Source: Sedimentisphaerales bacterium (GTDB lineage Bacteria; Planctomycetota; Phycisphaerae; Sedimentisphaerales; SM23-30). Taken from it: a DNA stretch of 64,000 nt. The notes beneath the pieces were generated by a model. That model made no database searches, was not told the DNA's origin, and worked only from the letters and a program-made list of their open reading frames with translations. A program made the translations under genes and the position numbers. Location: contig CAXXFK010000001.1 of NCBI GenBank assembly GCA_963663965.2, positions 224,001 through 288,000 of the forward strand. The letters run 5' to 3'. The number at the start of each line of letters is the position of its first letter. The stretch's first letter is position 1. Of the stretch, positions 8,008 to 25,261 are shown in pieces.

Positions 8008-8041
8008 ACCGCTTAGCATTACGAATTTGACTATTTGAACC

Positions 8042-9058: not shown

Positions 9059-9177
9059 TTGTTATAACGCCTTTTATCAATTATACGATTTTGTTCAGGA
9101 TTCCTTCTGTATCTTCGCCAGCCTTTTGAAGGCAAGCCGGTTAAGATTGTTCCGGTCTATTACCGATAACTAAAACT

Positions 9178-10585: not shown

Positions 10586-10638
10586 TTGTGAAAAAAATCA
10601 CTCCTAAACTTGACTCGACCTGATTATCGGGCAATAAT
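10586..10638 (+). promoter_or_regulatory. Rex-like operator and sigma70-like promoter upstream of the hydrogenase operon
   Basis: TTGTGAA-AAAA-ATCACTC (10586-10603; 11/14 match to TTGTGAA-N4-TTCACAA); TTGACT-N17-AATAAT (10610-10638). Confidence 0.5.
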
Positions 10639-10949: not shown

Positions 10950-12002
10950 ATGGAATCCGTTCAGTATTATTTGAACGGGAGAGAAGGGATAGAGTTCCTT
11001 AACCGGATCAGCCGGGGTACGGTATATGCGACTATCGAGCATAACGGTCAGATCGGATATGAAAAAATAGTTTCCCTGTTATCCATCCAACCTGAGTTGA
11101 CCGGGTTGCCGCCTATTGAATCCGTTAAGAGTTTTTATTTTCCGGCGCGGGAACGGGTCGCTGTTTATGGGAATTGTGAGTATTCAACCCCATCAGAGGC
11201 AGAGCCGGAATCAATCGGCTATCAGACGATTATTGGTGCGCGTACCTGTGATTTGAGCGCGTTGAAGGTCATGGATCGCATCTTTCTGGATCAGGAGTTC
11301 CATGATCCGTTTTATGAATCCCGACGGAAAAACACCCTGCTGGTAACGGTCGATTGCGTCCAGCCGGGCGAGTATTGTTTTTGCAATCTGGTGGGCGGCC
11401 AACCCTGGCCGCTGGATGGGTATCAGGTTCATTTATCGCCGATAGAGGGTGGTTACCTGGTCAGTTTTGGCAATGGCGTTGAAACTTTCCTGCTGGATTC
11501 GGTAAAAACGATGCTGTCCATGGCCACAGACCATCAAATTGCGCAAAAGGAATCCAACCGGGCCGGCGCGCTGGAACGACTGAAGACATGGAATCGCGGT
11601 TTTACCCCATTGACATCCATGAATGACATTGGCGCTATTGAGGACTGGGGCGAGTTATCCTGTTCGTGTGTGGAATGTGGAGCGTGCAGTTATGTCTGTC
11701 CAACCTGCCACTGCTTTCTGTTATTCGATCAGAGGGCACGCAGCGTACCTGAGATTCATATCCGCGAGAAGTCCTGGGACAGTTGCCTGCTGGCCAATTA
11801 CGCCAAAATGGCCGGCGTTGGCGGTATGAAACCCACCCCGCGACCGGAGTTACGGAACCGGTTTGAAAATCGTATTCGCCATAAATTCGAATGGATGGTC
11901 CAAAATCTCGGGTTGATCGGATGTGTGGGATGCGGCCGGTGCCGTTCAGCCTGCCTGGGGGGATCGGATATCCGGGCCGTTATTGAGGAGTTACACACAT
12001 GA
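10950..12002 (+). CDS. 4Fe-4S dicluster protein, AsrA/HydB/FlxB-like
   Basis: RTCDL, CVQPGEYCFC, CVECGACSYVCPTCHCF, CVGCGRCRSAC; ATG 10950 after GGGGAG. Confidence 0.85.
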   Translation: MESVQYYLNGREGIEFLNRISRGTVYATIEHNGQIGYEKIVSLLSIQPELTGLPPIESVKSFYFPARERVAVYGNCEYSTPSEAEPESIGYQTIIGARTCDLSALKVMDRIFLDQEFHDPFYESRRKNTLLVTVDCVQPGEYCFCNLVGGQPWPLDGYQVHLSPIEGGYLVSFGNGVETFLLDSVKTMLSMATDHQIAQKESNRAGALERLKTWNRGFTPLTSMNDIGAIEDWGELSCSCVECGACSYVCPTCHCFLLFDQRARSVPEIHIREKSWDSCLLANYAKMAGVGGMKPTPRPELRNRFENRIRHKFEWMVQNLGLIGCVGCGRCRSACLGGSDIRAVIEELHT

Positions 12003-12817
12003 TCCAGGCGAATCCCTATCAACCGATAGAAACGATACTGCTCGAGGTCATTACGGAAACCCCGACGATCAAGACGCTGGTACTGAAACCCAATGAGCCG
12101 ATCCCTTTTCGCGCCGGTCAGTTCATGCAACTGACCTGTCCGGGTATGGGGGAAGCGCCCTTTACCCCGTCATCCAATCCCCGTGACGCCGATATCCAGA
12201 CGATTACCATTTTAAAGACCGGCAAAGTCACCGATCAACTGCATGAATGCCGGGCGGGCGACACCCTGGGCTTGCGCGGCGCGTTTGGCAAGGGATATCC
12301 CATTGACAAGTTCTATGACAAAAACATTCTGCTGGTGGGCGGAGGCGTCGGGTTGGCGCCACTGCGGGCCCTGATTTACGCCTTGTTTAATGAAATCGAC
12401 CGGTTTAAACGAATCTCGATTAAATACGGCGCCCGGTCTCCGGAAGAGCTGCTGTTTAAGAATGAATTCAAACGCTGGCAGCAGATGGATCGGGTTGATT
12501 TTACCGCAACCGTGGACCGTGCCTCCAATGGGTGGCAGGGACCAGTAGGCGTTGTGACGACTCTATTGGATGACCTCGATCTGGATATCGCCAATGCGTA
12601 TGTGGTATCCTGCGGCCCGCCGATCATGCTCCGGTACGTTACGTTAAAATGCCTGGATCTGGGTTTCAAGCCCGCCCAGATTTATTTATCCATGAATCGC
12701 AAGATGAGTTGCGGCGTGGGGGTCTGCGGACGGTGCAATATCGGGCCGTATTACCTCTGCAAGGATGGCCCGGATATGTGTTACGAGAAGATTAAGGATT
12801 ATGACAATGTCTTTTGA
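11999..12817 (+). CDS. FAD/NAD(P)-binding 2Fe-2S subunit, AsrB/HydG/FlxA/PyrK-like
   Basis: GQFMQL, GLRGAFGKG, GGGVGLAP, CGPPIM, MSCGVGVCGRC..CKDGP. Confidence 0.9.
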   Translation: MIQANPYQPIETILLEVITETPTIKTLVLKPNEPIPFRAGQFMQLTCPGMGEAPFTPSSNPRDADIQTITILKTGKVTDQLHECRAGDTLGLRGAFGKGYPIDKFYDKNILLVGGGVGLAPLRALIYALFNEIDRFKRISIKYGARSPEELLFKNEFKRWQQMDRVDFTATVDRASNGWQGPVGVVTTLLDDLDLDIANAYVVSCGPPIMLRYVTLKCLDLGFKPAQIYLSMNRKMSCGVGVCGRCNIGPYYLCKDGPDMCYEKIKDYDNVF

Positions 12818-12831
12818 AACAAGGCCCGACA

Positions 12832-14565
12832 ATGGATGGTAACCTATCGAGATGTCCTTATTGTTCTTTGATGTGCCCGGTCGCCATCGAACGGCGCGCT
12901 CATGGCGTGACATTGCCGGCATACACAAACCCCGATGAATATTCCGGCGGACACCTGTGTTATCGCGGGCATTACCTGGCTCCCCTGCTCTGTCATCCCA
13001 ATCGCCTGATCGAAGCGACCCTGCAATCCGCCCCGGAACAACAAACGCAATCGGAGATCCATCACCAGGCGGCCCGGAAACTGCAAGAAGCCAGTAGAAA
13101 CAAGACTTTGGGGACACTGATATCGGGTAATCTGCCGGTGGAAGAAATCCACGCCGGCGGTCATTTTTTTCAGTCGATTTTGCCGGCCAGATCGACCAGT
13201 ATTTTTCTACCTCCTGCCGATGAAGCGATGATGCGTCAATTACGCGGTGGCCGGTATAAACCCGGTTTGCCGACCGCACTGGAAAAAGCCGATATCATTC
13301 TGGCCGTTGGCGATGTGCTGGGAACCCATCCGGTACTGGCCGGGCGGTTGATGGATCGGCTGGAAAGCAAGAAGCCCCCGATACTGATTAACCTGGACAG
13401 TATGAAGGGACGCACGATGCGCTTCGCGCGGATTGGACTGACTACCCAAACCGGTATGGAATGCTGGGGCATCGAAGCCCTGTTAACCTTGGTTAACCAT
13501 TCTAAAAAACCTGAGACGAAGGCCTGTTATCATGACGCACTGGCGGTCTGCGAACTGGAGGACGCGGCGGTTAAGGAGGCGGCAGAGGCCATCCGTCCGG
13601 AAAAAGGCAAGACGGTAGTCCTGCTGTTAACGATCCCACAAGGGCATTGCCGCCGTCCAAATGAACTGGCAACGTTAACCGGGCTGCTGGCGCGTACGAT
13701 CAAAGCCACACTGGTTCCATTATTGACCTATGCCAACGCGCCTGGCGCGTTCGCGGTCAGTCATACCCTGGGAACGACCCCACCGGCCCACTGGTTGAAA
13801 CAGGCCATGGATGGATCCTTCACGACCTTGTTTATTGCAGATGTCGATCTGTTCGGGATGTTGCCAAAAAACACCATCCAGACTATTCGCGCGAAAGTCG
13901 AAACCCTCATTACGGCCGCAGCGATGCCCGGACCCACCACTGAACTTTCGGATATTGTGCTGCCTCTGGCATTCGGCTTTGAAATGACCGGGCATTATAT
14001 GAATTGTCAGGGGACATTGATCAAACGTCAACCGCTGGGCATGCCGCCGGGACATGCCGTGGCATTAAGCGCGATGCTGCATCAGATCGACAAGCTATTG
14101 CTCCTGCCAGAAGTCACACGAATGCTCCCTGACGAATTTGCCTTGGAACTGGCTTCGGTTTCGGCGGCAGACCGGACCAAGCCGGAATTGTTGATACCGG
14201 AACCGGCTAATTCCTATACTTTGACGGCGCGTACTGAAACACTGGACCTTTATGAAGGAGCCGTATCCCGTCAGATGGACTGGCCGCTGGGTATCGAACC
14301 GATTCCAGTTGTGCTAATTCATCCGGAAAAGGCGCGGGCATTAAAACTGGCCGGCAATGACCGGATCCTGCTGACTCGAGGCACGCATGAGCAGGAATTT
14401 CTGGTAAGGATCAGCGACGCGGTCTGGCCGGACACGCTGGCTCTATCCGCGACTATACCGGAGACGCGTCATTACTTCCAATGGGAATTGAATGATGATG
14501 GTATCGAAATCACCCCTGTGCCGGTCGAAATCCGGCCGGCGGTTTGCGAGGTGGCCTGTGGCTGA
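12832..14565 (+). CDS. Molybdopterin-oxidoreductase-fold FeS subunit (FdhA/NuoG/FwdB-like), probably lacking a Mo/W ligand
   Basis: N-terminal CPYCSLMC...LCYRG 4Fe-4S motif, SDIVLP..FE..G motif, C-terminal Molydop_binding-like IHPEKA domain; no recognisable Cys/Sec-His active-site motif. Confidence 0.65.
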   Translation: MDGNLSRCPYCSLMCPVAIERRAHGVTLPAYTNPDEYSGGHLCYRGHYLAPLLCHPNRLIEATLQSAPEQQTQSEIHHQAARKLQEASRNKTLGTLISGNLPVEEIHAGGHFFQSILPARSTSIFLPPADEAMMRQLRGGRYKPGLPTALEKADIILAVGDVLGTHPVLAGRLMDRLESKKPPILINLDSMKGRTMRFARIGLTTQTGMECWGIEALLTLVNHSKKPETKACYHDALAVCELEDAAVKEAAEAIRPEKGKTVVLLLTIPQGHCRRPNELATLTGLLARTIKATLVPLLTYANAPGAFAVSHTLGTTPPAHWLKQAMDGSFTTLFIADVDLFGMLPKNTIQTIRAKVETLITAAAMPGPTTELSDIVLPLAFGFEMTGHYMNCQGTLIKRQPLGMPPGHAVALSAMLHQIDKLLLLPEVTRMLPDEFALELASVSAADRTKPELLIPEPANSYTLTARTETLDLYEGAVSRQMDWPLGIEPIPVVLIHPEKARALKLAGNDRILLTRGTHEQEFLVRISDAVWPDTLALSATIPETRHYFQWELNDDGIEITPVPVEIRPAVCEVACG

Positions 14566-15082
14566 ATTATCGACAGTATCAACGGAACCCAAACCTGATC
14601 CAGCTGAACAGGAACGCGTGGTATTGAATCTGGACCGATGTATCGGATGCCGGAGTTGTTCGGCAGCCTGTTTTTACGGGCATCTGGGCATGCCGAATAT
14701 CACCTTTGGGGCACTGGTCGAGGGCACTTTGCCGGTTATCTGCCGTCAGTGTGACGACCCGGCCTGTGAAGAGGCCTGCCCCGTGAACGCATTAAGACGA
14801 GATGACCAAGGCATAACCGCACGCAGCCGGATGCTGTGTATTGGATGTAAAAACTGCGTATTTGCCTGTCCATTTGGTGTTTTGAGCCCCAGCCTGACAT
14901 TAAGGCAAGTAGCCAAATGTGATTATTGTCAAGATTTAGTAGACCAGGAAGAACCGCCCCGCTGTGTTCAGGCCTGTCCGGCGGGAGCATTGAGCTATGT
15001 CAGATATCATGCCGACGAGAAAAAAGCGCCCATACTATTAAGCGGGCGAACGATCGGCAAACACCCTTACAAGAGACGATGA
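14558..15082 (+). CDS. 4x[4Fe-4S] ferredoxin-type subunit (HycB/CooF/HydN-like)
   Basis: CIGCRSCSAAC, CRQCDDPACEEACP, CIGCKNCVFACP, CDYC..CVQACP; GTG 14558 after GAGGT. Confidence 0.88.
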   Translation: MAELSTVSTEPKPDPAEQERVVLNLDRCIGCRSCSAACFYGHLGMPNITFGALVEGTLPVICRQCDDPACEEACPVNALRRDDQGITARSRMLCIGCKNCVFACPFGVLSPSLTLRQVAKCDYCQDLVDQEEPPRCVQACPAGALSYVRYHADEKKAPILLSGRTIGKHPYKRR

Positions 15083-15095
15083 AAGGAACCCGGCC

Positions 15096-16013
15096 ATGAA
15101 TCTGATGGCAATTCCGGCACTGGCCGGCGCGACGATGGGAACGATTGCGATCGGATTTCTATCCAAATGGATCGATCGCAAAGTGACCGCCCGCATTCAG
15201 TGGCGCGTGGGACCGCCCTGGTATCAGCCGCTGGCCGATGTGATTAAACTGATGGGCAAAGAAACTCTCTTGCCCGAGAGCGCGCGTGGCACCGGATTTC
15301 TGATGATGCCGCTGGTTGGGTTTGCGGCGGCTGCGGTAGCCGCAACGATTTTATGGTGGGCTACTTTTAATCCCGGTTCCGGATTTGTGGGCGATACGAT
15401 TGTCGTACTTTATTTACTGACGATTCCGGCCCTGATGACCATTCTGGGCGGGTCGGCCTCGGGTAATCCCCTGGCGGCAGTCGGGGCCGCGCGCGAGATG
15501 AAACTGGCGCTGGCCTATGAATTGCCATTATTGATTTCGGTCCTGGCGGCGGTCATGGCACGGTCCGGAGATTTTCGCCTGGGCGGCCTGATCGAAACGT
15601 CGCCGCAAGGTGTTTTCAGCAGCCTGGCCTGTGTGCTGGGATTCTTAGTGGCGATTTTGTGTATCCAGGCCAAACTGGGATTGGTGCCCTTCGACATTGC
15701 TGAAGCCGATTGTGAAATTGCCACCGGTCCTTTCATTGAGTATTCCGGGGTGGCGCTGGCGATGATTCTGCTGACCCGAACCATTCTGTTCGCCCTGCTG
15801 CCCATCTTCCTGATTACTATTTTCTGGGGTGGTTTGAATTTCTATTCGATAACGGGTGTGCTGGCAACCATCGGCAAATATGTTCTGATTATTGTCTTAA
15901 TGGTATTGATCCGAAATACCAACCCGCGGGTACGTATCGATCAAGCCATGAAATTTTTCTGGTTTGGCATGACGCCGATCGCGCTGATCGCGCTGATGCT
16001 GGCTTTAATATAA
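15096..16013 (+). CDS. Membrane subunit NuoH/HycD/MbhM-like
   Basis: RKVTARIQWRVGPPWYQPLADVIKL, PFDIAEA, EYSG, NPRVRIDQ. Confidence 0.92.
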   Translation: MNLMAIPALAGATMGTIAIGFLSKWIDRKVTARIQWRVGPPWYQPLADVIKLMGKETLLPESARGTGFLMMPLVGFAAAAVAATILWWATFNPGSGFVGDTIVVLYLLTIPALMTILGGSASGNPLAAVGAAREMKLALAYELPLLISVLAAVMARSGDFRLGGLIETSPQGVFSSLACVLGFLVAILCIQAKLGLVPFDIAEADCEIATGPFIEYSGVALAMILLTRTILFALLPIFLITIFWGGLNFYSITGVLATIGKYVLIIVLMVLIRNTNPRVRIDQAMKFFWFGMTPIALIALMLALI

Positions 16014-16027
16014 GGGAGAATTCGAAC

Positions 16028-16477
16028 ATGAATCTGAAAACCTGGGCCCTGAAAAAATCGATCTGGCTCTATCATGCCAATGTGGGCGCCTGTAACAACT
16101 GCGATATCGAAGTGGTCGACTGCCTGACGCCGCGATACGATATCGAGCGATTCGGGATGATGCTGGTAGGCAGTCCCCGTCATGCCGACGCTCTGGTTGT
16201 TACCGGTATCTGCACCATGCAGGCCCGGCCACGGTTGCAGGAACTGTACCAGCAGATGCCCAGACCCTGCCTGGTTTTGTGTATCGGGTCTTGTGCCTGT
16301 TCGGGTGGAATTTTTCGGTCCTGTTATCACTTTGCCGGCCCGGTTGACGAGGCGATCCGCGAGGTGGATCCCGCGGCGATTATCGCTTATGTGCCGGGTT
16401 GTCCACCCAAACCCGAGGCGATTATTGCCGGCGCGGTCAAGGCGCTGGGCGCTATTCCGGATGAAGCGATCGCGTAA
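16028..16477 (+). CDS. Group 4 [NiFe]-hydrogenase small subunit (HycG/NuoB/MbhJ-like)
   Basis: ACNNCDIE, SPRHAD, GSCACSGG, PGCPP. Confidence 0.93.
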   Translation: MNLKTWALKKSIWLYHANVGACNNCDIEVVDCLTPRYDIERFGMMLVGSPRHADALVVTGICTMQARPRLQELYQQMPRPCLVLCIGSCACSGGIFRSCYHFAGPVDEAIREVDPAAIIAYVPGCPPKPEAIIAGAVKALGAIPDEAIA

Positions 16478-16489
16478 AGGAAGTCTGTT

Positions 16490-16993
16490 ATGAATAATAA
16501 TGAGTTATTGAAAATGATTGAACAGAAACTGGGAGAAATATCCGAATCGATAACCGTCCGCAAAAGCCGGCGCATCTATATCGATGTGCCGCCGGAGTTC
16601 AGTCTGCAAGCGAACCGGATTTTATTTGCAGAGTTACAGGCCAGACTGGCCACCGCCACCGGCATGGATACTCCTGACCGCATCGAGGTATTGTACCATT
16701 ACTGCTTTGATTCTTCAGGCGTTGTTGTGTCAATTCGTACCTGGGCGCTCAAACCGGAGTGTGTGCTGGATTCTGTCGCGACGCTATTCCCGGGAGCCAA
16801 CTTTATCGAACGGGAAATCCAGGACCTGCTGGGGGTACGTTTTGAAAATCATCCCGATCCGCGCCGGCTCCTGCTGGCGGATAACTGGCCTGAAGGCAAA
16901 TATCCGCTCCGCCGCGATCAGGCCCTGCGGCGCGAACGGACCGAAACTCCTGAATTAAAACGACAGGCTTGTACAAAGGCGACCACACCATGA
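16490..16993 (+). CDS. NuoC/MbhK-like 30 kDa-family subunit
   Basis: EREIQDLLGVRFENHPDPRRLLLADNWPEGKYPLR. Confidence 0.9.
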   Translation: MNNNELLKMIEQKLGEISESITVRKSRRIYIDVPPEFSLQANRILFAELQARLATATGMDTPDRIEVLYHYCFDSSGVVVSIRTWALKPECVLDSVATLFPGANFIEREIQDLLGVRFENHPDPRRLLLADNWPEGKYPLRRDQALRRERTETPELKRQACTKATTP

Positions 16994-18174
16994 AAAAAAC
17001 CATCATACCGATCGGGCCCTTTCATCCGATTCAGGAAGAACCGGAATTTTTCCAGCTGACGGTGGAAGGCGAGACGGTGGTCGATGTTGACGTACGGCTT
17101 TCCTACAACCACCGGGGGATCGAGCGGCTCTGTCAGGATCTGACCTACGATCAGATTCCTTTTTTACTGGCCCGGATCTGCGGTATCTGTTCGGCGAGCC
17201 ATCCAATGGCGTTTTGTCAGGCGTGCGAAGATCTCTGCGGCGTGGAAGTTCCCATACGCGGACGGCATTTGCGCACCATCATCTGCGAAATGGAACGGAT
17301 CCACAGTCACCTGCTCTGGGCGGGATTGGCGGGTCACTTTATTGGATACAATACCGTGTTCATGTGGGCCTGGAAATATCGTGAACCGGTGCTCGAATTG
17401 TTTGAACGGCTGCTGGGCAACCGCAACCATTACGAAAACTTTTGTGTGGGCGGCTGCCGGCGCGATATCCCGCAGGAACATATGCCGGATATTCTCAAGA
17501 TGGCGGATGAACTGGAAGGACCGGTGGAAATGCTGACCCAGGCCGTACTGGATGATCCCGTATTAAAAGCGCGGTTGGGCGGCATCGGCGTCTTGACCTA
17601 TGAACAAGCCCGGCAATGGTGCACCACCGGCCCAACCGCGCGCGGGTCCGGGTACGATATCGATGTCCGGCGGGATGAGCCATACGCTTCTTATGATCTG
17701 CTGGACTGGCAGGTTTATACCCAGCCGGCCGGTGATGTCTTTGCCAAGGCCGTTGTTCGACTCCTGGAGGTTCTGGAGGCGATCCGGATTATCCGTCAGA
17801 CTGTTGCTCAGATCGAGCCGGGCGACATCCGCGCTGAAGTGCTGGAGATGCCGGAAGGTGAAGGCATCGGTCATGCCGAAGCGCCGCGTGGTGAGACCTT
17901 TCACTACGTCTGCTCGGATGGTTCCAATTATCCTCAACGCTATAAAGTACGCGCGCCCACTTATGTCAACCTGCCCAGTTTTAAGGCCTGTGTGGTGGGC
18001 CAGGAACTGGCAGACGCCATGTTGAGTGTGGCGGCGATGGATCCCTGTTACAGTTGTACCGAACGGGTGGCAGTGGTAAGGCCGCGACAAGGTCATCGTA
18101 AAGAGCGGTTCGACCAGAAAGCGTTAATAAAAATGAGCTGGGATAAAACCCGGCGTATCATGCAAAATGTATAA
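16990..18174 (+). CDS. Group 4 [NiFe]-hydrogenase large subunit
   Basis: GPFHP, L1 RICGICSASH, EAPRGE, L2 DPCYSCTER followed by a probable cleavable C-terminal tail. Confidence 0.95.
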   Translation: MKKTIIPIGPFHPIQEEPEFFQLTVEGETVVDVDVRLSYNHRGIERLCQDLTYDQIPFLLARICGICSASHPMAFCQACEDLCGVEVPIRGRHLRTIICEMERIHSHLLWAGLAGHFIGYNTVFMWAWKYREPVLELFERLLGNRNHYENFCVGGCRRDIPQEHMPDILKMADELEGPVEMLTQAVLDDPVLKARLGGIGVLTYEQARQWCTTGPTARGSGYDIDVRRDEPYASYDLLDWQVYTQPAGDVFAKAVVRLLEVLEAIRIIRQTVAQIEPGDIRAEVLEMPEGEGIGHAEAPRGETFHYVCSDGSNYPQRYKVRAPTYVNLPSFKACVVGQELADAMLSVAAMDPCYSCTERVAVVRPRQGHRKERFDQKALIKMSWDKTRRIMQNV

Positions 18175-18193
18175 CAGGTTACTGGATAACCAC

Positions 18194-18257
18194 TGACTTG
18201 AATTGTCAGACATCAAGTCAAGGCCTGGCATTTTCTGATCGCCAATCCGATCAGAAA
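18194..18257 (+). other. Two intergenic stem-loops between the catalytic and antiporter modules
   Basis: TGACTTGA-N11-TCAAGTCA (18194-18220); TTTCTGATCG-N6-CGATCAGAAA (18232-18257) overlapping the AAAGGA SD. Confidence 0.7.
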
Positions 18258-18268
18258 GGATATCGGCA

Positions 18269-20149
18269 ATGAATGAAACGACATTGATCTGGATGTTAAT
18301 AATCCCCAGCATCGCCGGCCTGCTGGCGTATCTCTGGCCGCGCCAGGGACAGCCGGTCGTACGACTGCTGGCGCTGGTGGCGACGGCAATGCTGGTTTTC
18401 CTGGCGATTATCCCGATTTATCATTCGGACTGGCAATGGCAATGGACCTGGCTGCGAACGGGTCAACTCGCTATCGGTATCGACCTGACGGCCAGACCTT
18501 TCGCAAGTGTGATAAGTTTGATGATCGCCCTATTCGGTTTTCTGATTACCCTTTACGACGTCGCTTATCTCCGGGGAGCAATCGGTCGTCATTATGCCTA
18601 TATGCTCTGGACCCTGGCCGGTGCTATTGGTGCGGCGCTGGCGAATGACCTTATTTTTCTACTATTCTGCTGGGAAATTACTACCCTGATGCTTTTCCTG
18701 CTGATCAATCAATCCGGGCCTCAGGCGCGTACCGGGGCGGCCAAAACCCTGGCCATGCTGGGTTTCAGCGATTGCGCGCTACTGCTGGGTATTGGTTTGA
18801 TCATCACACGGCCGGATATGAGCTCGCCGGCGATCGATCAAATCCACCTGAGTACCAATACGCCGCTGATGGCCATCTGTTACCTGCTCTTTATGATCGC
18901 GGGGCTGGCCAAGGCCGGCGCGATGCCGTTTCATACCTGGATTCCTACTGCCGCGGAGGCGACGACCTGCGATGTGATGGCGCTTCTGCCCGCAGCGCTG
19001 GATAAACTGCTGGGGATCTACCTGCTGGCACGGGCCTCACTCGAACTGTTTGTTCTGACTGACGGATTGAAGATGCTGCTCATGATTATCGGTGCGGTAA
19101 CAATTATTGGCGCGGTAATGATGGCAATGGTCCAGCATGACTTAAAGAAACTGCTTTCGTTTCATGCGGTCAGTCAGGTCGGTTATATGGTGCTGGGAAT
19201 CGGAACCGGCAGTGTTCTGGGTATCGCCGGTGGGTTGTTTCATATGTTCAACAACGCGATCTATAAAAGTTGCCTGTTTCTGACGGCCGGCGCAGTGGAA
19301 AAGCAGGCGGGCACGACCCACCTCGACCGGTTGGGCGGGCTGGCCCGAACCATGCCATTGACTTTTACGGCCTGTCTGCTGGCCGCATTGGCTATTTCCG
19401 GGGTGCCGCCCATGAATGGATTCAGCTCCAAATGGATGATCTACCAGGCCGTACTGGATGTGCCTTCACGCTGGGCGCCGATCCTGACGGCGGCGGCCAT
19501 CTTTGGCAGCGCCCTGACCCTGGCGAGTTTTGTCAAGGTACTGCACAGTGTCTTTTTGAGCGTGCCCGCACCGGACCAGGCCCCGGCAGTCGAGGGCGAA
19601 GTATCGGGTTGGATGACGGTACCAATGCTGGCGCTGGGCGTAACCTGTATTGTATTTGGAATCTGGGTGGCGCTGCCGCTGGGCGCGTTGATCATCCCGT
19701 CGATGACATCGATGGGGCAGGCCGGTACTGACACCATTCTACAGGCCAACCAGATCGATGCGGCGGCCCGGTTGTGGAATCCGGGACTGGCGACTTTGCT
19801 GCTGCTGGGGGGGCTGCTTATGGGGCTGATTATCTATTTCCTGGGCAAAGGTTTCAAAGTACGCCGGACCCGCACTTATATTGGCGGCGAAAAGATCACT
19901 CCTGAGCTGGTTCATTACAATGGTACCGGCTTCTATACCACCCTGCGAAACCTGCCCGGTATTCACGCCCTTTATCGCGACGCAGAGCGCCAGGTCTTTG
20001 ATATCTATCACCTGACCGGACGACTGGGCCATACCCTGGTCGAAGGCCTGCGCCGAACCCAGACGGGTATTCTATCGCTGTATATCAGTTGGGTCATTTT
20101 AGGGCTGGTGGTGATATTAATCTGTTTTATCAAGCTCCACAGCGGATAA
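18269..20149 (+). CDS. Antiporter-like membrane subunit (MrpA/NuoL/HyfB-like)
   Basis: CWE, KAGAMPFHTWIP, DLKKLLSFHAVSQVGY, GVPPMNGFSSKW; C-terminal QTG..YI lateral-helix-like end. Confidence 0.9.
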   Translation: MNETTLIWMLIIPSIAGLLAYLWPRQGQPVVRLLALVATAMLVFLAIIPIYHSDWQWQWTWLRTGQLAIGIDLTARPFASVISLMIALFGFLITLYDVAYLRGAIGRHYAYMLWTLAGAIGAALANDLIFLLFCWEITTLMLFLLINQSGPQARTGAAKTLAMLGFSDCALLLGIGLIITRPDMSSPAIDQIHLSTNTPLMAICYLLFMIAGLAKAGAMPFHTWIPTAAEATTCDVMALLPAALDKLLGIYLLARASLELFVLTDGLKMLLMIIGAVTIIGAVMMAMVQHDLKKLLSFHAVSQVGYMVLGIGTGSVLGIAGGLFHMFNNAIYKSCLFLTAGAVEKQAGTTHLDRLGGLARTMPLTFTACLLAALAISGVPPMNGFSSKWMIYQAVLDVPSRWAPILTAAAIFGSALTLASFVKVLHSVFLSVPAPDQAPAVEGEVSGWMTVPMLALGVTCIVFGIWVALPLGALIIPSMTSMGQAGTDTILQANQIDAAARLWNPGLATLLLLGGLLMGLIIYFLGKGFKVRRTRTYIGGEKITPELVHYNGTGFYTTLRNLPGIHALYRDAERQVFDIYHLTGRLGHTLVEGLRRTQTGILSLYISWVILGLVVILICFIKLHSG

Positions 20150-20167
20150 CTTCCCAGGGAGAATATT

Positions 20168-20692
20168 ATGTATCCATTTATCATTGTGTTAACACTGTTT
20201 CTCATGCTGGCGGCGTTTGTGGCGATTGAAGCCAAGGGATTGCTTTCCACAGTCGTTTCAGTAGGGGCGGCCGGACTGGCGCTGGCGGTGATTTTCATGC
20301 TGCTGGGTGCGCCCGATCTGGCCATTACGCAAGTTGTCGTTGAGGTCCTCTGCCTGGTATTATTGATCCGGGCGGCGGTGATGCGGGAAGATTCAACCTT
20401 TGGCACACCGCAGAGCAGCTTTGTACTGGCGGCTGGATTGATCGGAGGGGGCATATTTCTAACGCTGGTCTATTTTGCTTTACAGACCTTGACGCCGTTT
20501 GGAACCCCGCTGATGAATCTGTCGGAAGGCTATCTGCAAAATGGTTTAACACAGACTGGTGCAGTCAATTATGTCATGGCCATCCTGCTGGATTACCGCG
20601 CTTATGATACCCTGGGGGAAGCCACGGTGATTTTTGCCTCGATTATCGGTGTTTACGCCGTGATGCGACGGCTCGGGAGGAAGAAATCATGA
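20168..20692 (+). CDS. DUF4040 + MbhE-like fused subunit (MrpA C-terminal part)
   Basis: APDLAITQVVVE and AILLDYRAYDTLGEATV. Confidence 0.88.
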   Translation: MYPFIIVLTLFLMLAAFVAIEAKGLLSTVVSVGAAGLALAVIFMLLGAPDLAITQVVVEVLCLVLLIRAAVMREDSTFGTPQSSFVLAAGLIGGGIFLTLVYFALQTLTPFGTPLMNLSEGYLQNGLTQTGAVNYVMAILLDYRAYDTLGEATVIFASIIGVYAVMRRLGRKKS

Positions 20693-21138
20693 AAGGAATG
20701 ACGCTTATCGTTAAAGAAGTGACCAACCTGGTTATCGGATTTATTTTGCTGTTTTCGATCTATCTGGTGTTATACGGCCATCTTTCGCCCGGCGGTGGAT
20801 TTGTGGGCGGGGTCATGCTGAGTTGCGGCCTGATCCTGCTGATCCTGGCGCACGGCAAGGAAACGTTCAATACCCTGATCGATGACCGAGCCATGACCCT
20901 GTGGGATTGTATCGGAGCACTGCTGTTTCTGGTCCTGGCTTTGCTGGGGTATAGCGCCGGTATATTTTTCGCCAATATTTTTTCGGCCTGGGGCAGACCG
21001 TTCACCCTGGTCAGTGGCGGGACAATACCTCTGGCCAATATTGCCATTGGCATTAAAGTCGGTGCGTGTCTGGCCGGGGCCTTTATCGCGCTGGTGGTGA
21101 CGGGCAAAGCCAAACAATCGCTATCCGGAGATCTGTAA
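20689..21138 (+). CDS. MrpB/MnhB-like subunit
   Basis: GHLSPGGGFVGG; NIAIGIKV. Confidence 0.9.
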   Translation: MKGMTLIVKEVTNLVIGFILLFSIYLVLYGHLSPGGGFVGGVMLSCGLILLILAHGKETFNTLIDDRAMTLWDCIGALLFLVLALLGYSAGIFFANIFSAWGRPFTLVSGGTIPLANIAIGIKVGACLAGAFIALVVTGKAKQSLSGDL

Positions 21139-21140
21139 TC

Positions 21141-21503
21141 ATGAACACTGGAATGATACCTTACTTTCTTGCCATGCTGGTTATCGGGATCGGTCTGTAC
21201 GCGATCATCGCCAAAAAGAACATTATCAAAATCATCGTCGGGTTGATCATTCTCGACTACGGCGCCAATCTGTTTTTGATATTATGCGGGTATCGTCATG
21301 AGGGCATTGCCCCGATCCGGACACCGGATATGGCCGCGGATTCATTTGTCGCCACATCGGTCGATCCGGTGCCACAGGCATTGATTCTAACCTCGATCGT
21401 GATCGGTTTGGGACTGGTAGCCCTGATGGCGGCAATTGCCATACGAATTTATGAAAAATACCGAACCTTCGATATTACCCGGATTCGCCAGTTGAAGGGA
21501 TAA
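21141..21503 (+). CDS. MrpC/MnhC-like subunit
   Basis: DPVPQALILTSIVIG; ATG 21141 after GGAG. Confidence 0.92.
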   Translation: MNTGMIPYFLAMLVIGIGLYAIIAKKNIIKIIVGLIILDYGANLFLILCGYRHEGIAPIRTPDMAADSFVATSVDPVPQALILTSIVIGLGLVALMAAIAIRIYEKYRTFDITRIRQLKG

Positions 21504-21508
21504 TTATT

Positions 21509-23035
21509 ATGAATGCTATTCTGCCTTTGTTTGTTGTGATTCCGCTGGCGCTGGCTTTTATTCTGCCGTTGCTTGAGAAGCGCTCATACGGTTCGTTCCT
21601 GAGCCGGGCACTCGCCGTGCTGGCTTCAATAGTCCTGCTGATTCTGGCCGTCAGCCTGCTGTTCAGCCCATCTTCGATCAGTTGGATCGGAGGGTGGTCG
21701 CCTTCCAAAGGTTCGATAGGAATCAGTATGGTGCTGGATCCGCTCAGCGCCATGATGATGGTGATCGTTACGGTGGTTGCCCTGGCCGCGACACTCTATT
21801 CGCTGAATTACATGAAACGCTTTACCTCAGAACCACTCTTCTACTGCCTGTTCTTTCTGATGATCGCCGGTATTCATGGCGTTGTCCTGACGGGCGATAT
21901 TTTCAATCTGTATGTCTTCCTGGAAGTCGCCGCCATCGCCAGCTATTCGCTGGTGGCATTCGGATGCGAAATGGAGGAGTTGGAGGCCTCTTTCAAGTAC
22001 CTGGTGCTGGGATCGATCGGCTCAATCTTTATCTTTCTGGGGATCGGAATTATTTATAACCAGACCGGACATCTCAACTTGCAGTTCATTCGCGCCAATT
22101 TGCCGCCTGACAATGGCGCGGTTATGATCGCGGCGGCCTTTTTCCTGACCGGTTTCAGTCTCAAAGCCGCCATGGTGCCGTTTCACGCCTGGCTGCCGGA
22201 CGCCCATCCATCGGCGCCGGCCCCCATCTCTGCCATGCTGTCGGGGATACTCATCAAAGCCCTGGGAGTTTATACCATGATCCGGGTCTTCTTTACGACC
22301 ATGATCCTTAATCGCGAACTGGTCTGGGTACTGATCACCCTGGGGGCAGTCAGCATGGTGATCGGGGTTTTTCTGGCCGTGGGACAATGGGATTTCAAAC
22401 GGTTGTTGGCTTATCATTCGATCAGCCAGATGGGCTATGTCGTTCTCAGTCTGGGCGTGGCCGGTGAGATGCTGCTGAACAATAATTGTACGGTCGCGTC
22501 ATTGGCTTTGCTGGGCGGATTGTTTCACATGGCCAACCATGCCACCTTCAAATCATTGCTGTTTCTCTGTTCCGGCGCAGCGGAGTATGCGACTGGAGTA
22601 CGTCAGCTCAAACTGCTGGGCGGTTTAAAATATCGCATGCCGGTTACTGGCGCCTGCCTGCGTATCGGGGCCTTGAGCATTTCGGGAATCCCGCCCTTTA
22701 ACGGATTCTGGAGCAAACTGATTATTGTAATCGCCGTCCTCCAGGCCGGGCATCCACTACTGGGCGCCATGACCGTACTGGTCAGTTTTATGACACTCCT
22801 GTCATTTATCAAAGTACAGCGCTATATTCTCGATGGCGAACCCTCCGAACGAGTTACTCAGGCCCGTGAAGTGCCGGTTGGTATGCAACTGGCAATGGTC
22901 TTACTGGCAGTGATCTGCCTGGGGGCGGGTTTGTTATTGCCTGTTTACAAAGACATCTTTTTCGAAAACGCCGGTCGGATCGTGACAGACTCCATAACGA
23001 GTACGATTCAACTTCTGGCTGGAAGCGGAGGCTAA
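21509..23035 (+). CDS. MrpD/MnhD/MbhH-like antiporter subunit
   Basis: GDIFNLYVFLEV, KAAMVPFHAWLPDAHPSAP, KRLLAYHSISQMGY. Confidence 0.93.
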   Translation: MNAILPLFVVIPLALAFILPLLEKRSYGSFLSRALAVLASIVLLILAVSLLFSPSSISWIGGWSPSKGSIGISMVLDPLSAMMMVIVTVVALAATLYSLNYMKRFTSEPLFYCLFFLMIAGIHGVVLTGDIFNLYVFLEVAAIASYSLVAFGCEMEELEASFKYLVLGSIGSIFIFLGIGIIYNQTGHLNLQFIRANLPPDNGAVMIAAAFFLTGFSLKAAMVPFHAWLPDAHPSAPAPISAMLSGILIKALGVYTMIRVFFTTMILNRELVWVLITLGAVSMVIGVFLAVGQWDFKRLLAYHSISQMGYVVLSLGVAGEMLLNNNCTVASLALLGGLFHMANHATFKSLLFLCSGAAEYATGVRQLKLLGGLKYRMPVTGACLRIGALSISGIPPFNGFWSKLIIVIAVLQAGHPLLGAMTVLVSFMTLLSFIKVQRYILDGEPSERVTQAREVPVGMQLAMVLLAVICLGAGLLLPVYKDIFFENAGRIVTDSITSTIQLLAGSGG

Positions 23036-23038
23036 GCG

Positions 23039-23524
23039 ATGAAATACCTGGCTTCGTTTATTATGTTGTTACTGCTCTGGCTGATACTGGCTAATCCGGA
23101 TTCAGCCTGGGAGTGGCTTACCGGCGCGGCAGTGGCATTGCTACTCTCTGTTGTGTTAGGGCGGCTCTATCGCCCTGTTCCAATCGCCATCCTCGATCCG
23201 GTACGCTGGCTCTGGTTTGTAGTGTATGCTCTCTATTTCATTTACTACTGTATCCGCGCCAATCTGGATGTGGCCTATCGGGCGCTGCATCCGGATATGC
23301 CGATTCGTCCCGGGATTGTCAAAGTCCAGACCCGATTAAAAAGCGATATTGCCAAAACCTTCCTGGCCAACTCGATTACTCTGACGCCCGGCACACTCAC
23401 CATAGACATCATGGGCAACTCGCTGTTCATACACTGGATCAATATCGTCACTGACGACCCGGACGGGCAAACGGATATTATTGTCAGACGTTTCGAAACC
23501 CTTTTGGAAAGGATCTTCGAATGA
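23039..23524 (+). CDS. MrpE/MnhE-like subunit
   Basis: ANSITLTPGTLT. Confidence 0.93.
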   Translation: MKYLASFIMLLLLWLILANPDSAWEWLTGAAVALLLSVVLGRLYRPVPIAILDPVRWLWFVVYALYFIYYCIRANLDVAYRALHPDMPIRPGIVKVQTRLKSDIAKTFLANSITLTPGTLTIDIMGNSLFIHWINIVTDDPDGQTDIIVRRFETLLERIFE

Positions 23525-23778
23525 TTACCATAGGAATGTGGATACTGATCATCGCCAGTTTTCTGTGCCTTTACCGGATAGCCGCGGGGCCAACCGCGCC
23601 GGACCGCACAGTTGCCATCGATATACTCGGTACCCTGATGATCGGCTTTGTCTGTCTGTTCGCTCTGCTGCACAAGCAGGATTTTTATATGAATATCGCG
23701 CTGGCCTGGGCCCTGCTCAGTTTTATCGGATCCATTGCCCTGGCCAAATATCTGGAAGGCAGGCATTTCCATGAATGA
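23521..23778 (+). CDS. MrpF/MnhF-like subunit
   Basis: GPTAPDRTVAID; FIGSIALAKYL. Confidence 0.92.
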   Translation: MITIGMWILIIASFLCLYRIAAGPTAPDRTVAIDILGTLMIGFVCLFALLHKQDFYMNIALAWALLSFIGSIALAKYLEGRHFHE

Positions 23779-24121
23779 GTTGATTGGATCCATCCTGATT
23801 GGAATCGGACTGGCTTTTGACCTGGTCGGCGTCATTGGCCTGGTTCGCTTCCCTGATATCTACAATCGGTTACAGGCCGCCACCAAATGTGTTACACTAG
23901 GCACCGCCACCCTGTTGCTGGGTGTGGCCGTTTATGACGGTGGTTTTGCCCTGGGCGCCAAGGCTTTGCTCTGTGCCGTTTTCATTCTGCTCACCTCGCC
24001 CGTCGGGGCACACGCCATTGCCCGGGGCGCACATATTTCCGGCATCCGGCTTTGGGAGGGCAGCGTCTGCGACCGTTACCGGGAGGTACCCAAACAGGAG
24101 TCTGGCCATGAAGAAGCCTAA
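23771..24121 (+). CDS. MrpG/MnhG-like subunit
   Basis: RFPDIYNRLQAATKCVTLG; SPVGAHAIARGA. Confidence 0.92.
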   Translation: MNELIGSILIGIGLAFDLVGVIGLVRFPDIYNRLQAATKCVTLGTATLLLGVAVYDGGFALGAKALLCAVFILLTSPVGAHAIARGAHISGIRLWEGSVCDRYREVPKQESGHEEA

Positions 24122-24725
24122 ACTGCGAGAACTCGGCGAAGCCATTCGCTCACTGCTGAGTCCGGCTTTTACCACGCGATTTCCAGCTGTTCCAGCGCCG
24201 GCCCCGCCGGCTTATCGGGGTAAAGGCAAGTTCCACGATGAACAGTGTATTGGCTGCGGCGCCTGTGCCGAGGTCTGCCCGGCCGACGCTATCGAAGTGA
24301 TCGATAATATCACTGATGATACACCAATGCGTACCTTGATACGGCATGATGATATCTGCATTTTCTGTGGCCAGTGTCAGTCTTTATGTACAACGGAACA
24401 AGGCATTGAATGCACACCCGAATACGAACTGTCCACCTTTGATCGTGCCACTTGTGCGGTATCGGTGCAAAAAGAGCTGGTTTTATGCCGGCTCTGCGGC
24501 GAGACGATAACCACCAAAGACCACCTCCGCTGGCTGGCGGATAAACTGGGCACCAAACGTTACGCCAATCCAACTCTGATACTGATTAAAGAAGCACAAC
24601 TCGGGTTGCTTCCGCCGGAAACCGCGCCGCCACCGCGTCCTCATGAACCGGATCGGGGTGATACCATGCAGGTTTTATGTCCGCATTGCCGACGACAGGT
24701 CATTTTAAAGGAGATTTGGGGATGA
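24108..24725 (+). CDS. NuoI/HycF/MbhN-like 2x[4Fe-4S] subunit with extra C-terminal Cys pairs
   Basis: CIGCGACAEVCP, CIFCGQCQSLC, plus CRLC..CPHC; ATG 24108 after AGGAG. Confidence 0.88.
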   Translation: MKKPKLRELGEAIRSLLSPAFTTRFPAVPAPAPPAYRGKGKFHDEQCIGCGACAEVCPADAIEVIDNITDDTPMRTLIRHDDICIFCGQCQSLCTTEQGIECTPEYELSTFDRATCAVSVQKELVLCRLCGETITTKDHLRWLADKLGTKRYANPTLILIKEAQLGLLPPETAPPPRPHEPDRGDTMQVLCPHCRRQVILKEIWG

Positions 24726-25261
24726 CCATTCATGATATGCTTGCCCGGAACCTTGACAAAGAATCGCTCATTCTGGGGGTGGGCAACCGCCTTTTTGGCG
24801 ATGATGCTTTTGGACCGGCTGTCATCGACGGCCTGCGTGACCGGACATCGCTGGCATTGCTCAACGGAGGCATTGCCCCGGAAAATCTCTTCGGGCCCAT
24901 CTCCCGCCTGGCGCCTACCCGTGTCATTATCGCCGATGCCGTTTCGCTAAATGCTCCCTTTGGCAGCCTGCACTGGCTCGAACCGGATGAGCTGGATGGC
25001 GCCGCCATTTCTACCCACGGCCCGCCGCTTGACCTGGTGGTGGCGATTATTACGCAGTATATCAAAGCCCGGGTACATATCATCGGAGTGGTGCCCGCGA
25101 CTCTCGGGTTAAATCAGGCCATGTCACCGGAAGTGCAAAAAGCTACCCAAACGGTCGTTGCCTCCATCGCCGATCTGTTTCCGGCCGATCCCTCAGTCAT
25201 ACAATCGCTTGATTCCGACCCAATTTCGCACCGGACTCACAGGCGTACCGAACCCAAATAA
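24722..25261 (+). CDS. Hydrogenase maturation endopeptidase (HycI-like)
   Basis: GVGNRLFGDDAFGP, APEN, IIADA, ISTH. Confidence 0.9.
   Translation: MTIHDMLARNLDKESLILGVGNRLFGDDAFGPAVIDGLRDRTSLALLNGGIAPENLFGPISRLAPTRVIIADAVSLNAPFGSLHWLEPDELDGAAISTHGPPLDLVVAIITQYIKARVHIIGVVPATLGLNQAMSPEVQKATQTVVASIADLFPADPSVIQSLDSDPISHRTHRRTEPK

What the first reader, a model, noticed from the sequence alone, without database searches (positions are those of the whole stretch)
10950..25261. Group 4 [NiFe]-hydrogenase operon wired to an NAD(P)H module and a complete Mrp antiporter
Seen: 18 co-oriented, mostly overlapping or abutting genes. They encode an AsrA/HydB-like FeS protein, an AsrB/HydG-like FAD/NAD(P) subunit, a molybdopterin-fold FeS protein, a 4x[4Fe-4S] protein, NuoH/B/C-like subunits, a large subunit with intact RICGIC and DPCYSCTER motifs, two antiporter-like subunits, DUF4040/MbhE, MrpB,C,E,F,G, a NuoI-like subunit and a protease. 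Known: characterised group 4 enzymes (Hyc/Hyf, Coo, Ech, Mbh) take electrons from formate, CO or ferredoxin, while HydB/HydG-type modules belong to soluble NAD(P)-linked enzymes. Inference: this may be an ion-translocating NAD(P)H:H+ oxidoreductase. It would either use Na+/H+ motive force to drive endergonic H2 evolution from NAD(P)H in a fermenter, or pump ions during H2-to-NAD(P)+ transfer. Similar operons may already exist in other genomes; I cannot check this.
Basis: partly seen in the sequence, partly recalled or inferred. Interest (0 to 1): 0.8.

Follow-up and report, generated by a model that had tools for sequence, protein, structure and literature searches.

The report
Hun-type NADH-linked membrane hydrogenase operon
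An anaerobic planctomycete carries an 18-gene operon for a membrane-bound nickel-iron hydrogenase with ion-pump subunits and an NADH-type flavoprotein input; the design is already known from genome surveys but untested, and it probably spends the membrane ion gradient to turn surplus NADH into hydrogen gas.

Summary
The 18-gene operon is real and as described. The host is probably a Sedimentisphaerales planctomycete. The design is in print, as the 'enigmatic' Saganbacteria group-4 hydrogenase (PMC6349859), the 'Mbh-Mrp-oxidoreductase type' (10.1101/765248) and 'Hun' (10.1101/536078); Hun was assigned to ferredoxin. I found no biochemical test. This scan noted the same system in at least 7 other genomes. 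AsrB-like is adjacent in 25 of 30 clade loci from genomes (four others are cut by contig ends), 31 of 31 evaluable metagenome loci and 0 of 12 outgroup loci. The L2 motif is CYSC, not HunG's CYCC, but both fall in one clade. Evidence for NADH: an invariant Asp at the NADH-selecting position (66 of 66), and rex genes and Rex-like boxes enriched upstream (this locus's own box is weak). The molybdopterin-fold subunit looks like a dead formate dehydrogenase: no Cys, His or Arg, and no MoaC or MoeA found in the genome. With two pump subunits, an NADH-coupled enzyme could run only as ion-driven H2 evolution. That mechanism is inferred (about 50%); docking of the NADH module is untested.

The parts
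10586..10603 (.). Rex-like operator (11 of 14 to TTGTGAA-N4-TTCACAA), 6 bp upstream of a sigma70-like -35; also resembles a CRP-family box
   Evidence: The same position is kept in L016 (12 of 14) and L064 (10 of 14). Alone it is weak: shuffle p 0.06; 4.6% of this genome's upstream regions reach 11.
10610..10638 (+). sigma70-like promoter TTGACT-17-AATAAT (candidate)
   Evidence: 10 of 12 match; consensus match only
10950..12002 (+). AsrA/HydB-like FeS protein (HunA-like), 350 aa
   Evidence: PF17179; HydB, ShyB and AsrA models below their cut-offs; 13 invariant Cys in 40 aligned sequences
11999..12817 (+). AsrB/HydG-like FAD/NAD/[2Fe-2S] protein (HunB-like), 272 aa, with the NADH-type Asp173
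   Evidence: best PDB match is P. furiosus SHI gamma 9NEZ_C, E 1.6e-44; Asp in 26 of 26 and 40 of 40
12814..14565 (+). FdhF/NapA/NuoG-fold protein, 583 aa; one [4Fe-4S] site kept, catalytic and MGD-binding motifs lost (inferred cofactor-less scaffold)
   Evidence: (pLDDT 88); no MoaC or MoeA found in the genome
14558..15082 (+). HycB/CooF/DmsB-like 4x[4Fe-4S] protein (HunC-like); first in-frame ATG at 14492
15096..16013 (+). NuoH/MbhM-like membrane anchor
   Evidence: PF00146
16028..16477 (+). hydrogenase small subunit (NuoB-like), GACNNCD motif
   Evidence: PF01058
16490..16993 (+). NuoC/MbhK-like subunit
   Evidence: PF00329
16990..18174 (+). group-4 [NiFe] large subunit; L1 RICGIC, L2 DPCYSCTER, about 35-residue C-terminal extension
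   Evidence: best PDB matches HycE 7Z0S (E 2.9e-81) and MbhL 6CFW (E 6.5e-77)
18269..20149 (+). MrpA-TM/MbsH'-like antiporter subunit with C-terminal extension (626 aa); E, K, H, K axis motifs present
   Evidence: (6U8Y_X aligns residues 3-563)
20168..20692 (+). MbhD+MbhE (DUF4040; MrpA C-terminal part)
   Evidence: PF13244, PF20501
20689..21138 (+). MrpB/MnhB
   Evidence: PF04039
21141..21503 (+). MrpC
   Evidence: PF00420
21509..23035 (+). MrpD/MbhH-like antiporter subunit (508 aa); axis motifs present
   Evidence: 6CFW_H, E 9e-86
23039..23524 (+). MrpE
   Evidence: PF01899
23521..23778 (+). MrpF
   Evidence: PF04066
23771..24121 (+). MrpG
   Evidence: PF03334
24108..24725 (+). NuoI/HycF-like 2x[4Fe-4S] subunit with two extra CxxC pairs (a HycF-type extra metal site; recalled comparison)
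   Evidence: (PRK12387 is the best model)
24722..25261 (+). HycI-like hydrogenase maturation protease
   Evidence: PF01750, TIGR00072 above cut-off

Best explanation
This is a complete copy of the Hun / 'Mbh-Mrp-oxidoreductase' membrane [NiFe]-hydrogenase, in the form that keeps the FdhF-like subunit. Most likely it is an ion-coupled NADH:H+ oxidoreductase run backwards. NADH reduces the FAD of the AsrB-like subunit. Electrons pass through its [2Fe-2S], the AsrA-like clusters, the HycB-like and HycF/NuoI-like clusters and the small subunit to the NiFe site. Inward ion flow through the two-pump, MBS/Mrp-like membrane arm pays for H2 evolution. Rex switches the operon on when NADH/NAD+ rises, for example when H2 builds up and the cell's bifurcating [FeFe] hydrogenases stall. 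The FdhF-like subunit is a cofactor-less relic of a formate-hydrogenlyase-Mrp ancestor, comparable to NuoG. Shown here: the anatomy, conserved linkage, NADH-type residue, loss of the formate site and Rex association across the family. Inferred: physical docking, NADH as the physiological donor, ion number, direction and Rex control of this copy.
For: Linkage: AsrB-like lies next to the hydrogenase in 25 of 30 clade loci from GTDB genomes and in 0 of 12 outgroup group-4 loci. The 5 genomes lacking it in the fetched locus all have a 53-68% identical copy on another contig. It is present in 31 of 31 metagenome loci with at least 4.3 kb upstream. NADH type: Asp173 is invariant (26 of 26; 40 of 40). 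It aligns with Asp in NqrF, b5 reductase, PyrK and NfnA, and with Thr in the NADPH-type SHI gamma. D239T in b5 reductase is listed as an NAD-to-NADP switch in PMC5817062 (table passage). Rex: a rex gene is beside asrA in 6 of 24 genome loci and 13 of 31 metagenome loci. Boxes scoring at least 12 of 14 occur in 7 of 24 and 9 of 26 loci, against 14 of 2101 upstream regions of this genome; the consensus is in the PMC2883068 abstract. A near-identical box precedes this genome's NuoF-like soluble hydrogenase cluster. Two antiporter subunits are present, as in MBS (two pumps) and unlike MBH (one) (PMC8165549 passages). With assumed potentials, NADH alone equilibrates with 2-64 Pa H2; two ions at 150 mV raise this to 2-76 bar. 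Maturation genes are present: HypD and the operon's own protease.
Against: No biochemical or expression data. Glass et al. propose ferredoxin as donor, and HydDB calls group 4g putatively ferredoxin-coupled. Rex controls reductant-disposal genes broadly; a similar box precedes this genome's pyruvate:ferredoxin oxidoreductase-like gene (identified from its N-terminal sequence, recalled), so Rex control does not identify the substrate. This locus's own box is only 11 of 14 and could be a CRP-family site. Many rex-linked loci are close kin (one subclade). Rnf is present here and in 21 of 25 carriers, and this genome has five [FeFe]-hydrogenase catalytic domains, which already give a cheaper NADH-to-H2 route (about 1 ion per H2). 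One genome (G183, L040) has the operon split from asrAB. MoeA occurs more often in genomes with the FdhF-like subunit (12 of 16) than without (2 of 9) (the genomes are kin and the second group is smaller), which does not fit a wholly cofactor-free subunit everywhere.
Confidence: 0.5

Rival explanations
1. Ferredoxin-driven, ion-pumping H2 evolution (the published Hun/Mbh model). Reduced ferredoxin enters at the FdhF-like, HycB-like or AsrA-like clusters, and the two-pump arm exploits very low environmental H2. The flavin module is a side branch that exchanges electrons with NAD+/NADH.
For: Published model. All characterised Mrp-linked relatives use low-potential donors (HydDB table). Two-ion pumping from ferredoxin at -450 to -500 mV is feasible below about 14-665 Pa H2 at 150 mV, which suits sediments. 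The FdhF-like cluster ligands are invariant (17 of 17) and could be an entry point.
Against: An open wire joining ferredoxin to an NADH-type flavin would short-circuit ferredoxin to NAD+ without pumping (inference). No bifurcating flavin type is recognisable. AsrB is an NAD(P)-binding FNR-type protein, not a ferredoxin dock. The FdhF-like subunit is lost in several lineages while AsrAB is kept, and the first HycB-like cluster motif decays in 6 of 13 such loci, against 1 of 22 with it (L132 reassigned by gene order).
Confidence: 0.27
2. AsrAB-like is a separate soluble NADH-to-FeS/ferredoxin oxidoreductase, co-transcribed and co-regulated with, but not bound to, a ferredoxin-linked Mrp hydrogenase.
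For: L040/G183 has asrB on another contig. AsrAB-type pairs serve many partners, such as Asr, SHI and FlxAB-Hdr (family knowledge; the FlxABCD paper was seen only as a reference title).
Against: Near-universal linkage across the clade and none outside it. HydB/AsrA-type proteins normally dock on a partner FeS subunit (recalled).
Confidence: 0.1
3. Forward respiration H2 -> NAD+ with ion pumping, or loosely coupled H2 uptake that supplies NADH.
For: Group-4 enzymes are reversible (HydDB table). With one ion per 2 e-, the H2 threshold falls to about 0.2-70 kPa.
Against: With two ions it needs at least 0.2-80 bar H2 at NADH/NAD+ of 0.03-0.1. Rex derepression at high NADH is the wrong signal for an NADH-making enzyme (inference).
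Confidence: 0.08
4. The molybdopterin-fold subunit is an active Mo/W enzyme (formate or an unknown substrate), making the complex a formate-hydrogenlyase-like or substrate:H+ oxidoreductase.
For: Full FdhF fold (pLDDT 88; TM about 0.8 to FdhF and NapA). Invariant Asp136 near the old active site. MoeA is present in 12 of 16 other genomes carrying the subunit.
Against: The Sec/Cys ligand aligns with Ala135, His with Asp136, and the Arg motif RGQNN is lost. The QD and TGR/HYH cofactor-binding motifs are lost. It is the least conserved subunit (21-40% identity, against 55-84% for the large subunit). No MoaC or MoeA and no other PF00384 protein were found in this 94.6% complete genome. MoeA was also not found in 4 other carriers (86-89% complete).
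Confidence: 0.05

Closest known systems
'Enigmatic' group-4 hydrogenase of Saganbacteria RX5A (Matheus Carnevali et al. 2019, PMC6349859) = 'Mbh-Mrp-oxidoreductase type' (Meheust et al., bioRxiv 10.1101/765248)
   Same: asrA-like, asrB-like, an FdhF/NapA-like protein with one [4Fe-4S] lacking key residues, cooF-like, NuoB/C/D/H/I homologues and Mrp subunits in one region; function stated as unknown (passages and Supplementary Note 5)
   Different: Different phylum. This copy has the full MrpA-G set. Those papers do not name NADH as donor, the direction or Rex in the passages I read. Sequence identity to RX5A could not be tested.
Hun supercomplex (Glass et al., bioRxiv 10.1101/536078; section 8 read whole)
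   Same: HunAB = AsrA/B-like; optional 4Fe-4S molybdopterin-domain gene between hunB and hunC; group-4 large subunit; Mnh A-H-like module; NuoI-like last. CYCC-bearing large subunits with this gene order fall in one clade with ours (SH-aLRT 99).
   Different: L2 is CYSC, not the CYCC given for HunG. Hun is described as 16 subunits and ferredoxin-driven. The reference HunG sequence itself was not available to place in the tree.
Pyrococcus furiosus MBH (6CFW) and MBS (6U8Y)
   Same: Mrp-derived Na+/H+ module, NuoH-type anchor, NuoB/C/D/I-type arm; intact NiFe motifs like MBH; two antiporter subunits like MBS
   Different: MBH has one pump and MBS has no NiFe site; both use ferredoxin and lack the four input subunits.
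E. coli formate hydrogenlyase (7Z0S/7Z0T) and Fdh-Mrp-Mbh complexes (HydDB 4a/4b)
   Same: FdhF-like, HycB-like and HycF-like wire; HycE is the closest solved large subunit. A sister locus (L044) has an intact FdhF (HCARLCH, RGQNNVQG), HycB-like, group-4 core and Mrp.
   Different: The FdhF-like subunit has lost its catalytic residues, and an NADH-type AsrAB module is added.
Soluble NAD(P)-linked modules: SHI HydBG, AsrAB, FlxAB; and complex I N-module (NuoEFG)
   Same: AsrB-like is closest to SHI gamma. The whole arm parallels complex I: a diaphorase plus a dead FdhF-like scaffold feeding a NuoBCDHI core.
   Different: Here the module is tied to an ion-translocating H2-evolving core; the diaphorase is FAD/FNR-type, not NuoF/FMN; SHI gamma has Thr where ours has Asp.

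Membership tests
[quoted passage not shown] | Large subunit with L1 and L2 CxxC motifs, of the NuoD-like (short) type | tested here: met
   RICGIC and DPCYSC; best hits HycE and MbhL
[quoted passage not shown] | NuoB-, C-, I-, H-like and antiporter-like subunits, plus maturation machinery | tested here: met
   protease in the operon; HypD in the genome
HydDB subgroup 4g | Assignment by the HydDB classifier | not testable with these tools
   HydDB is not available; Glass et al. report HunG as 4g
Mbh-Mrp-oxidoreductase type (Saganbacteria RX5A) | asrA-like, asrB-like and cooF-like genes beside the group-4 core | tested here: met
Mbh-Mrp-oxidoreductase type (Saganbacteria RX5A) | FdhF/NapA-like protein with one [4Fe-4S] and missing key residues | tested here: met
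Mbh-Mrp-oxidoreductase type (Saganbacteria RX5A) | Mrp antiporter-like subunits | tested here: met
Hun (Glass et al.) | Gene set and order: AsrA, AsrB, optional molybdopterin-domain protein, FeS, NuoH-like, hydrogenase core, Mnh module | tested here: met
Hun (Glass et al.) | HunG L2 motif CYCC | tested here: not met
   CYSC here. CYCC marks a subclade (SH-aLRT 91) inside the same clade, so this is filed as Hun-like, not as HunG in the strict sense.
Hun (Glass et al.) | Phylogenetic placement with reference HunG (RXG63129) | tested here: inconclusive
   The reference could not be fetched; placed only with CYCC-bearing homologues in a quick tree
MBH (HydDB 4d) | One antiporter-like pump, ferredoxin donor, no input module | tested here: not met
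   Two pumps and four input subunits
Formate hydrogenlyase / Fdh-Mrp-Mbh (HydDB 4a/4b) | Active FdhF with Sec/Cys, His, Arg and bis-MGD | tested here: not met
Ion-translocating NADH:H+ oxidoreductase (proposed) | NADH-dependent H2 evolution coupled to an ion gradient | not testable with these tools
   Needs biochemistry; only sequence, regulatory and thermodynamic support

The most novel reading that the evidence does not exclude
The Hun clade is a widespread 'reverse complex I for H2'. It is a formate-hydrogenlyase-Mrp descendant whose formate dehydrogenase died and was replaced as input by an NADH-specific HydBG-type diaphorase. Under Rex control, it spends about two ions per H2 to vent NADH as H2 at partial pressures where bifurcating hydrogenases stall. 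It would be the first group-4 hydrogenase that uses NADH directly, and an independent parallel to how complex I gained its NADH module.
Probability: 0.45. Interest if true: 0.75.

Novelty: new member of a known kind. Interest (0 to 1): 0.38.

Why it matters
The operon itself is not new. The family is large: 6630 of 8000 scored candidates matched a CYCC-type large subunit at E <= 1e-100, though that count may include other group-4 enzymes. Source names among the top hits include Planctomycetota, Verrucomicrobiota, Kiritimatiellae, Lentisphaerae, Chitinispirillaceae, Spirochaetota and FCPU426. Genome papers routinely read these enzymes as ferredoxin-driven ion pumps that make energy. If they are NADH-driven and consume the gradient, the energy budgets drawn for many uncultured sediment fermenters have the sign wrong at this step. 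It would also supply a single-complex route for reverse electron transport from NADH to H2. The AsrB-like subunit is small and soluble, so its cofactor preference is directly testable.

Tried and rejected
Complex prediction of AsrA-like with the HycB-like and FdhF-like (residues 10-445) subunits gave no verdict (score 0.00 in two runs, controls not folded); it is no evidence either way. Search for RNA runs: no RNA holder listed, so co-transcription is untested; the two runs laid are contigs of at most one sample. The careful tree did not finish; the quick IQ-TREE tree was used, rooted at the midpoint, with no test of root or of one clade, so 'FdhF-like subunit ancestral and lost repeatedly' is a reading of an unrooted pattern. 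The tree used 61 rows: 42 genome loci, the window and 18 of 80 metagenome loci chosen by me. The search for related loci on genomes returned only 3 loci. The metagenome scan used patterns that force CYSC or CYCC and kept the best 80 of 598, so its motif counts (50 and 30) are not a census. Rex tally exclusions: L031 and L135 (no asrA in the locus), L076, L081 and L122 (under 300 bp upstream), L107 (contig starts inside asrA). For rex-led loci the region upstream of rex was scored. Fisher values overstate significance because loci are kin and the background is a single genome. Literature searches for a biochemical test or an NADH-donor proposal found none; the library lacks most subscription papers. 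The SHI structure paper was not found, and no Sedimentisphaerales genome paper surfaced. PMC6305446 was checked and is not relevant. Supplements of the bioRxiv papers (Glass Table S5 and the Meheust Fig. S10 gene maps) were not seen and may list planctomycete copies. Rejected: an Ehr/Mbx-type complex without Ni (motifs intact), an assembly artefact (conserved synteny), an active formate dehydrogenase, and NADPH as preferred partner (invariant Asp).


Full report
Observation. Junctions overlap or are 2-18 bp, except one of 94 bp. The large subunit has RICGIC and DPCYSCTER plus a C-terminal extension, its best solved relatives are HycE and MbhL, and a HycI-like protease ends the operon. HypD is in the genome. 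The closest named relative (83-84% in the large subunit, same 18-gene order) is a Sedimentisphaerales MAG, so the host is probably an anaerobic planctomycete of that order.

Conservation. The large subunit matched at E <= 1e-70 in 34 of 401 genomes of the phylum sample and at E <= 1e-40 in 14 of 31 relatives; both counts include this genome and other group-4 enzymes. Of 42 genome loci examined, 30 have a large subunit at least 54% identical. AsrB-like is adjacent in 25 of these and AsrA-like in 24. Four of the five without AsrB are cut by contig ends and one (L040) is split; all five genomes hold a 53-68% identical AsrB elsewhere. None of the 12 more distant group-4 loci has the pair. In metagenomes, 31 of the 80 kept loci had at least 4.3 kb upstream; all 31 had AsrB-like and 30 had AsrA-like. 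One locus (L025) has lost most Mrp genes. A quick tree puts the window in one clade (SH-aLRT 99) with CYCC-bearing large subunits, which form a subclade (91). The FdhF-like gene is present in the deepest branch and missing in several subgroups.

Prior art. Matheus Carnevali et al. 2019 (PMC6349859; passages and Supplementary Note 5 read) describe this gene set in Saganbacteria RX5A as 'enigmatic'. Meheust et al. (10.1101/765248; passages) call it the Mbh-Mrp-oxidoreductase type, function unknown. Glass et al. (10.1101/536078; section 8 read whole) name it Hun, note the optional molybdopterin-domain gene, class HunG as 4g with CYCC, and propose ferredoxin as donor. HydDB (PMC5037454; passages) lists 4g as of undetermined role. 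Two Antarctic-lake MAG papers (PMC8542988, PMC9324843; passages) read Mrp-linked 4g enzymes as ferredoxin-driven. Searches found no biochemical test and no printed NADH-donor proposal. Unchecked notes of this scan report the same operon and its Rex link in at least 7 other genomes (read after my own Rex analysis).

Input module. The AsrB-like protein is closest to P. furiosus SHI gamma. At the end of the strand that reads the adenosine 2' position it has T-V-D. The Asp is invariant in 26 of 26 sequences (25 genome loci plus the window) and 40 of 40 metagenome sequences. NqrF, b5 reductase, PyrK and NfnA have Asp there and SHI gamma has Thr; their cofactor preferences are partly from the PDB names and partly recalled. 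D239T is tabulated as an NAD-to-NADP switch in b5 reductase (PMC5817062, table passage); equating Asp173 with Asp239 rests on alignment. The molybdopterin-fold protein folds like FdhF/NapA/NuoG. It keeps only the four cluster cysteines and a few Gly, Asp and Pro residues. In profile alignments the Sec/Cys ligand maps to Ala135, His to Asp136, and the Arg and cofactor-binding motifs are gone. MoaC and MoeA were not found, and this is the only PF00384 protein in the 94.6% complete genome. Against this, MoeA is commoner in genomes with the subunit (12 of 16) than without (2 of 9). A sister locus outside the clade, L044, has an intact FdhF with HycB-like, group-4 and Mrp genes, which suggests descent from a formate-hydrogenlyase-Mrp complex (inference). 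Where the FdhF-like gene is lost, the first cluster motif of the HycB-like protein decays in 6 of 13 loci, against 1 of 22 where it is kept. That branch therefore looks dispensable, and AsrA probably feeds in elsewhere (inference).

Regulation. A rex gene lies beside asrA in 6 of 24 genome loci and 13 of 31 metagenome loci. Most belong to one subclade, but L016 and L132 are separate lineages. Against the Rex consensus (PMC2883068, abstract in listing), sites scoring at least 12 of 14 occur upstream in 7 of 24 and 9 of 26 loci, against 14 of 2101 upstream regions of this genome. The window's own site scores 11 of 14 (background 4.6%, shuffle p 0.06) but sits 6-7 bp before a -35-like hexamer in the window, L016 and L064. 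This genome's rex heads a NuoE/NuoF-like plus [FeFe]-hydrogenase cluster.

Membrane arm and direction. There are two antiporter-like subunits with the charged-axis motifs. Yu et al. 2021 (PMC8165549; passages) give MBH one pump (12 kJ/mol) and MBS two (41 kJ/mol). With assumed values (NAD+ -320 mV, H+ -414 mV, pH 7, 25 C), NADH alone balances 2-64 Pa H2; one ion at 150 mV gives 0.7-22 kPa and two ions give 2-76 bar. An NADH-coupled two-ion enzyme can thus only run as ion-driven H2 evolution under natural conditions, and H2-to-NAD+ pumping is implausible. Two-ion pumping from ferredoxin is feasible only at low H2 (about 14 Pa at -450 mV, 665 Pa at -500 mV). Rnf is present here and in 21 of 25 carriers, and this genome has five [FeFe] catalytic domains and two other NiFe hydrogenases. 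The complex would therefore be an expensive high-H2 valve rather than the only route, which fits Rex induction but also weakens the need for it.

Verdict. [quoted passage not shown] The NADH-driven reverse mechanism is my best reading (about 0.5), against the published ferredoxin model (about 0.27). Docking, co-transcription and activity remain untested.

Noticed in passing
window 25280-27712 (-): 810-aa fusion of a histidine-kinase core (HisKA + HATPase) with a CoA-disulfide-reductase/NADH-oxidase-like flavoprotein and a rhodanese domain, converging on the operon end. The fusion junction is conserved in L016 (47% over residues 8-290), where it lies upstream of the operon on the same strand as rex. 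It may be a redox- or persulfide-sensing kinase linked to this locus.
   Followed up: partly
G000 C41:40056-47081: The genome's only rex gene found heads a NuoE-like/NuoF-like/[FeFe]-hydrogenase cluster followed by a second [FeFe] catalytic-domain gene.
   Followed up: partly
G000 C1:4980-10167 (-): NuoF-like, soluble NiFe hydrogenase cluster (probably group 3d) with an upstream Rex-like box very similar to the one before this operon.
   Followed up: partly
G000 C33:279020-288395 (-): A second group-4-related cluster (three antiporter-like, NuoH-like, large and small subunit homologues) not matched by PF00374; probably an Ehr-type complex.
   Followed up: no
G000 C31:84300-84599, C31:140142-140492, C33:308662-309148: Three rotary ATPase c/K-subunit loci. 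By recalled motifs, one F-type looks H+-coupled, while an N-ATPase-like and a V/A-type one look Na+-coupled.
   Followed up: no
L044:5822-18458: Intact formate dehydrogenase + HycB-like + group-4 core + full two-pump Mrp set in a planctomycete: a bacterial Fdh-Mrp-hydrogenase and a possible model of the ancestor.
   Followed up: partly
L025 and L135: Variants that keep the AsrB-like input arm but have lost most or all Mrp genes at the locus (L025: one antiporter subunit, then NuoI-like; L135: NuoI-like directly after the large subunit). They may be one-pump or uncoupled forms.
   Followed up: no
L086 and L101: Variants with an extra antiporter-like hit between the large subunit and MrpA-like, possibly three pumps.
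   Followed up: no
window 6580-10167 (+): Upstream genes (an MBOAT-like protein judged from its sequence, a 338-aa protein with no Pfam match, a radical SAM/SPASM protein) look like an unrelated cell-envelope cluster.
   Followed up: no
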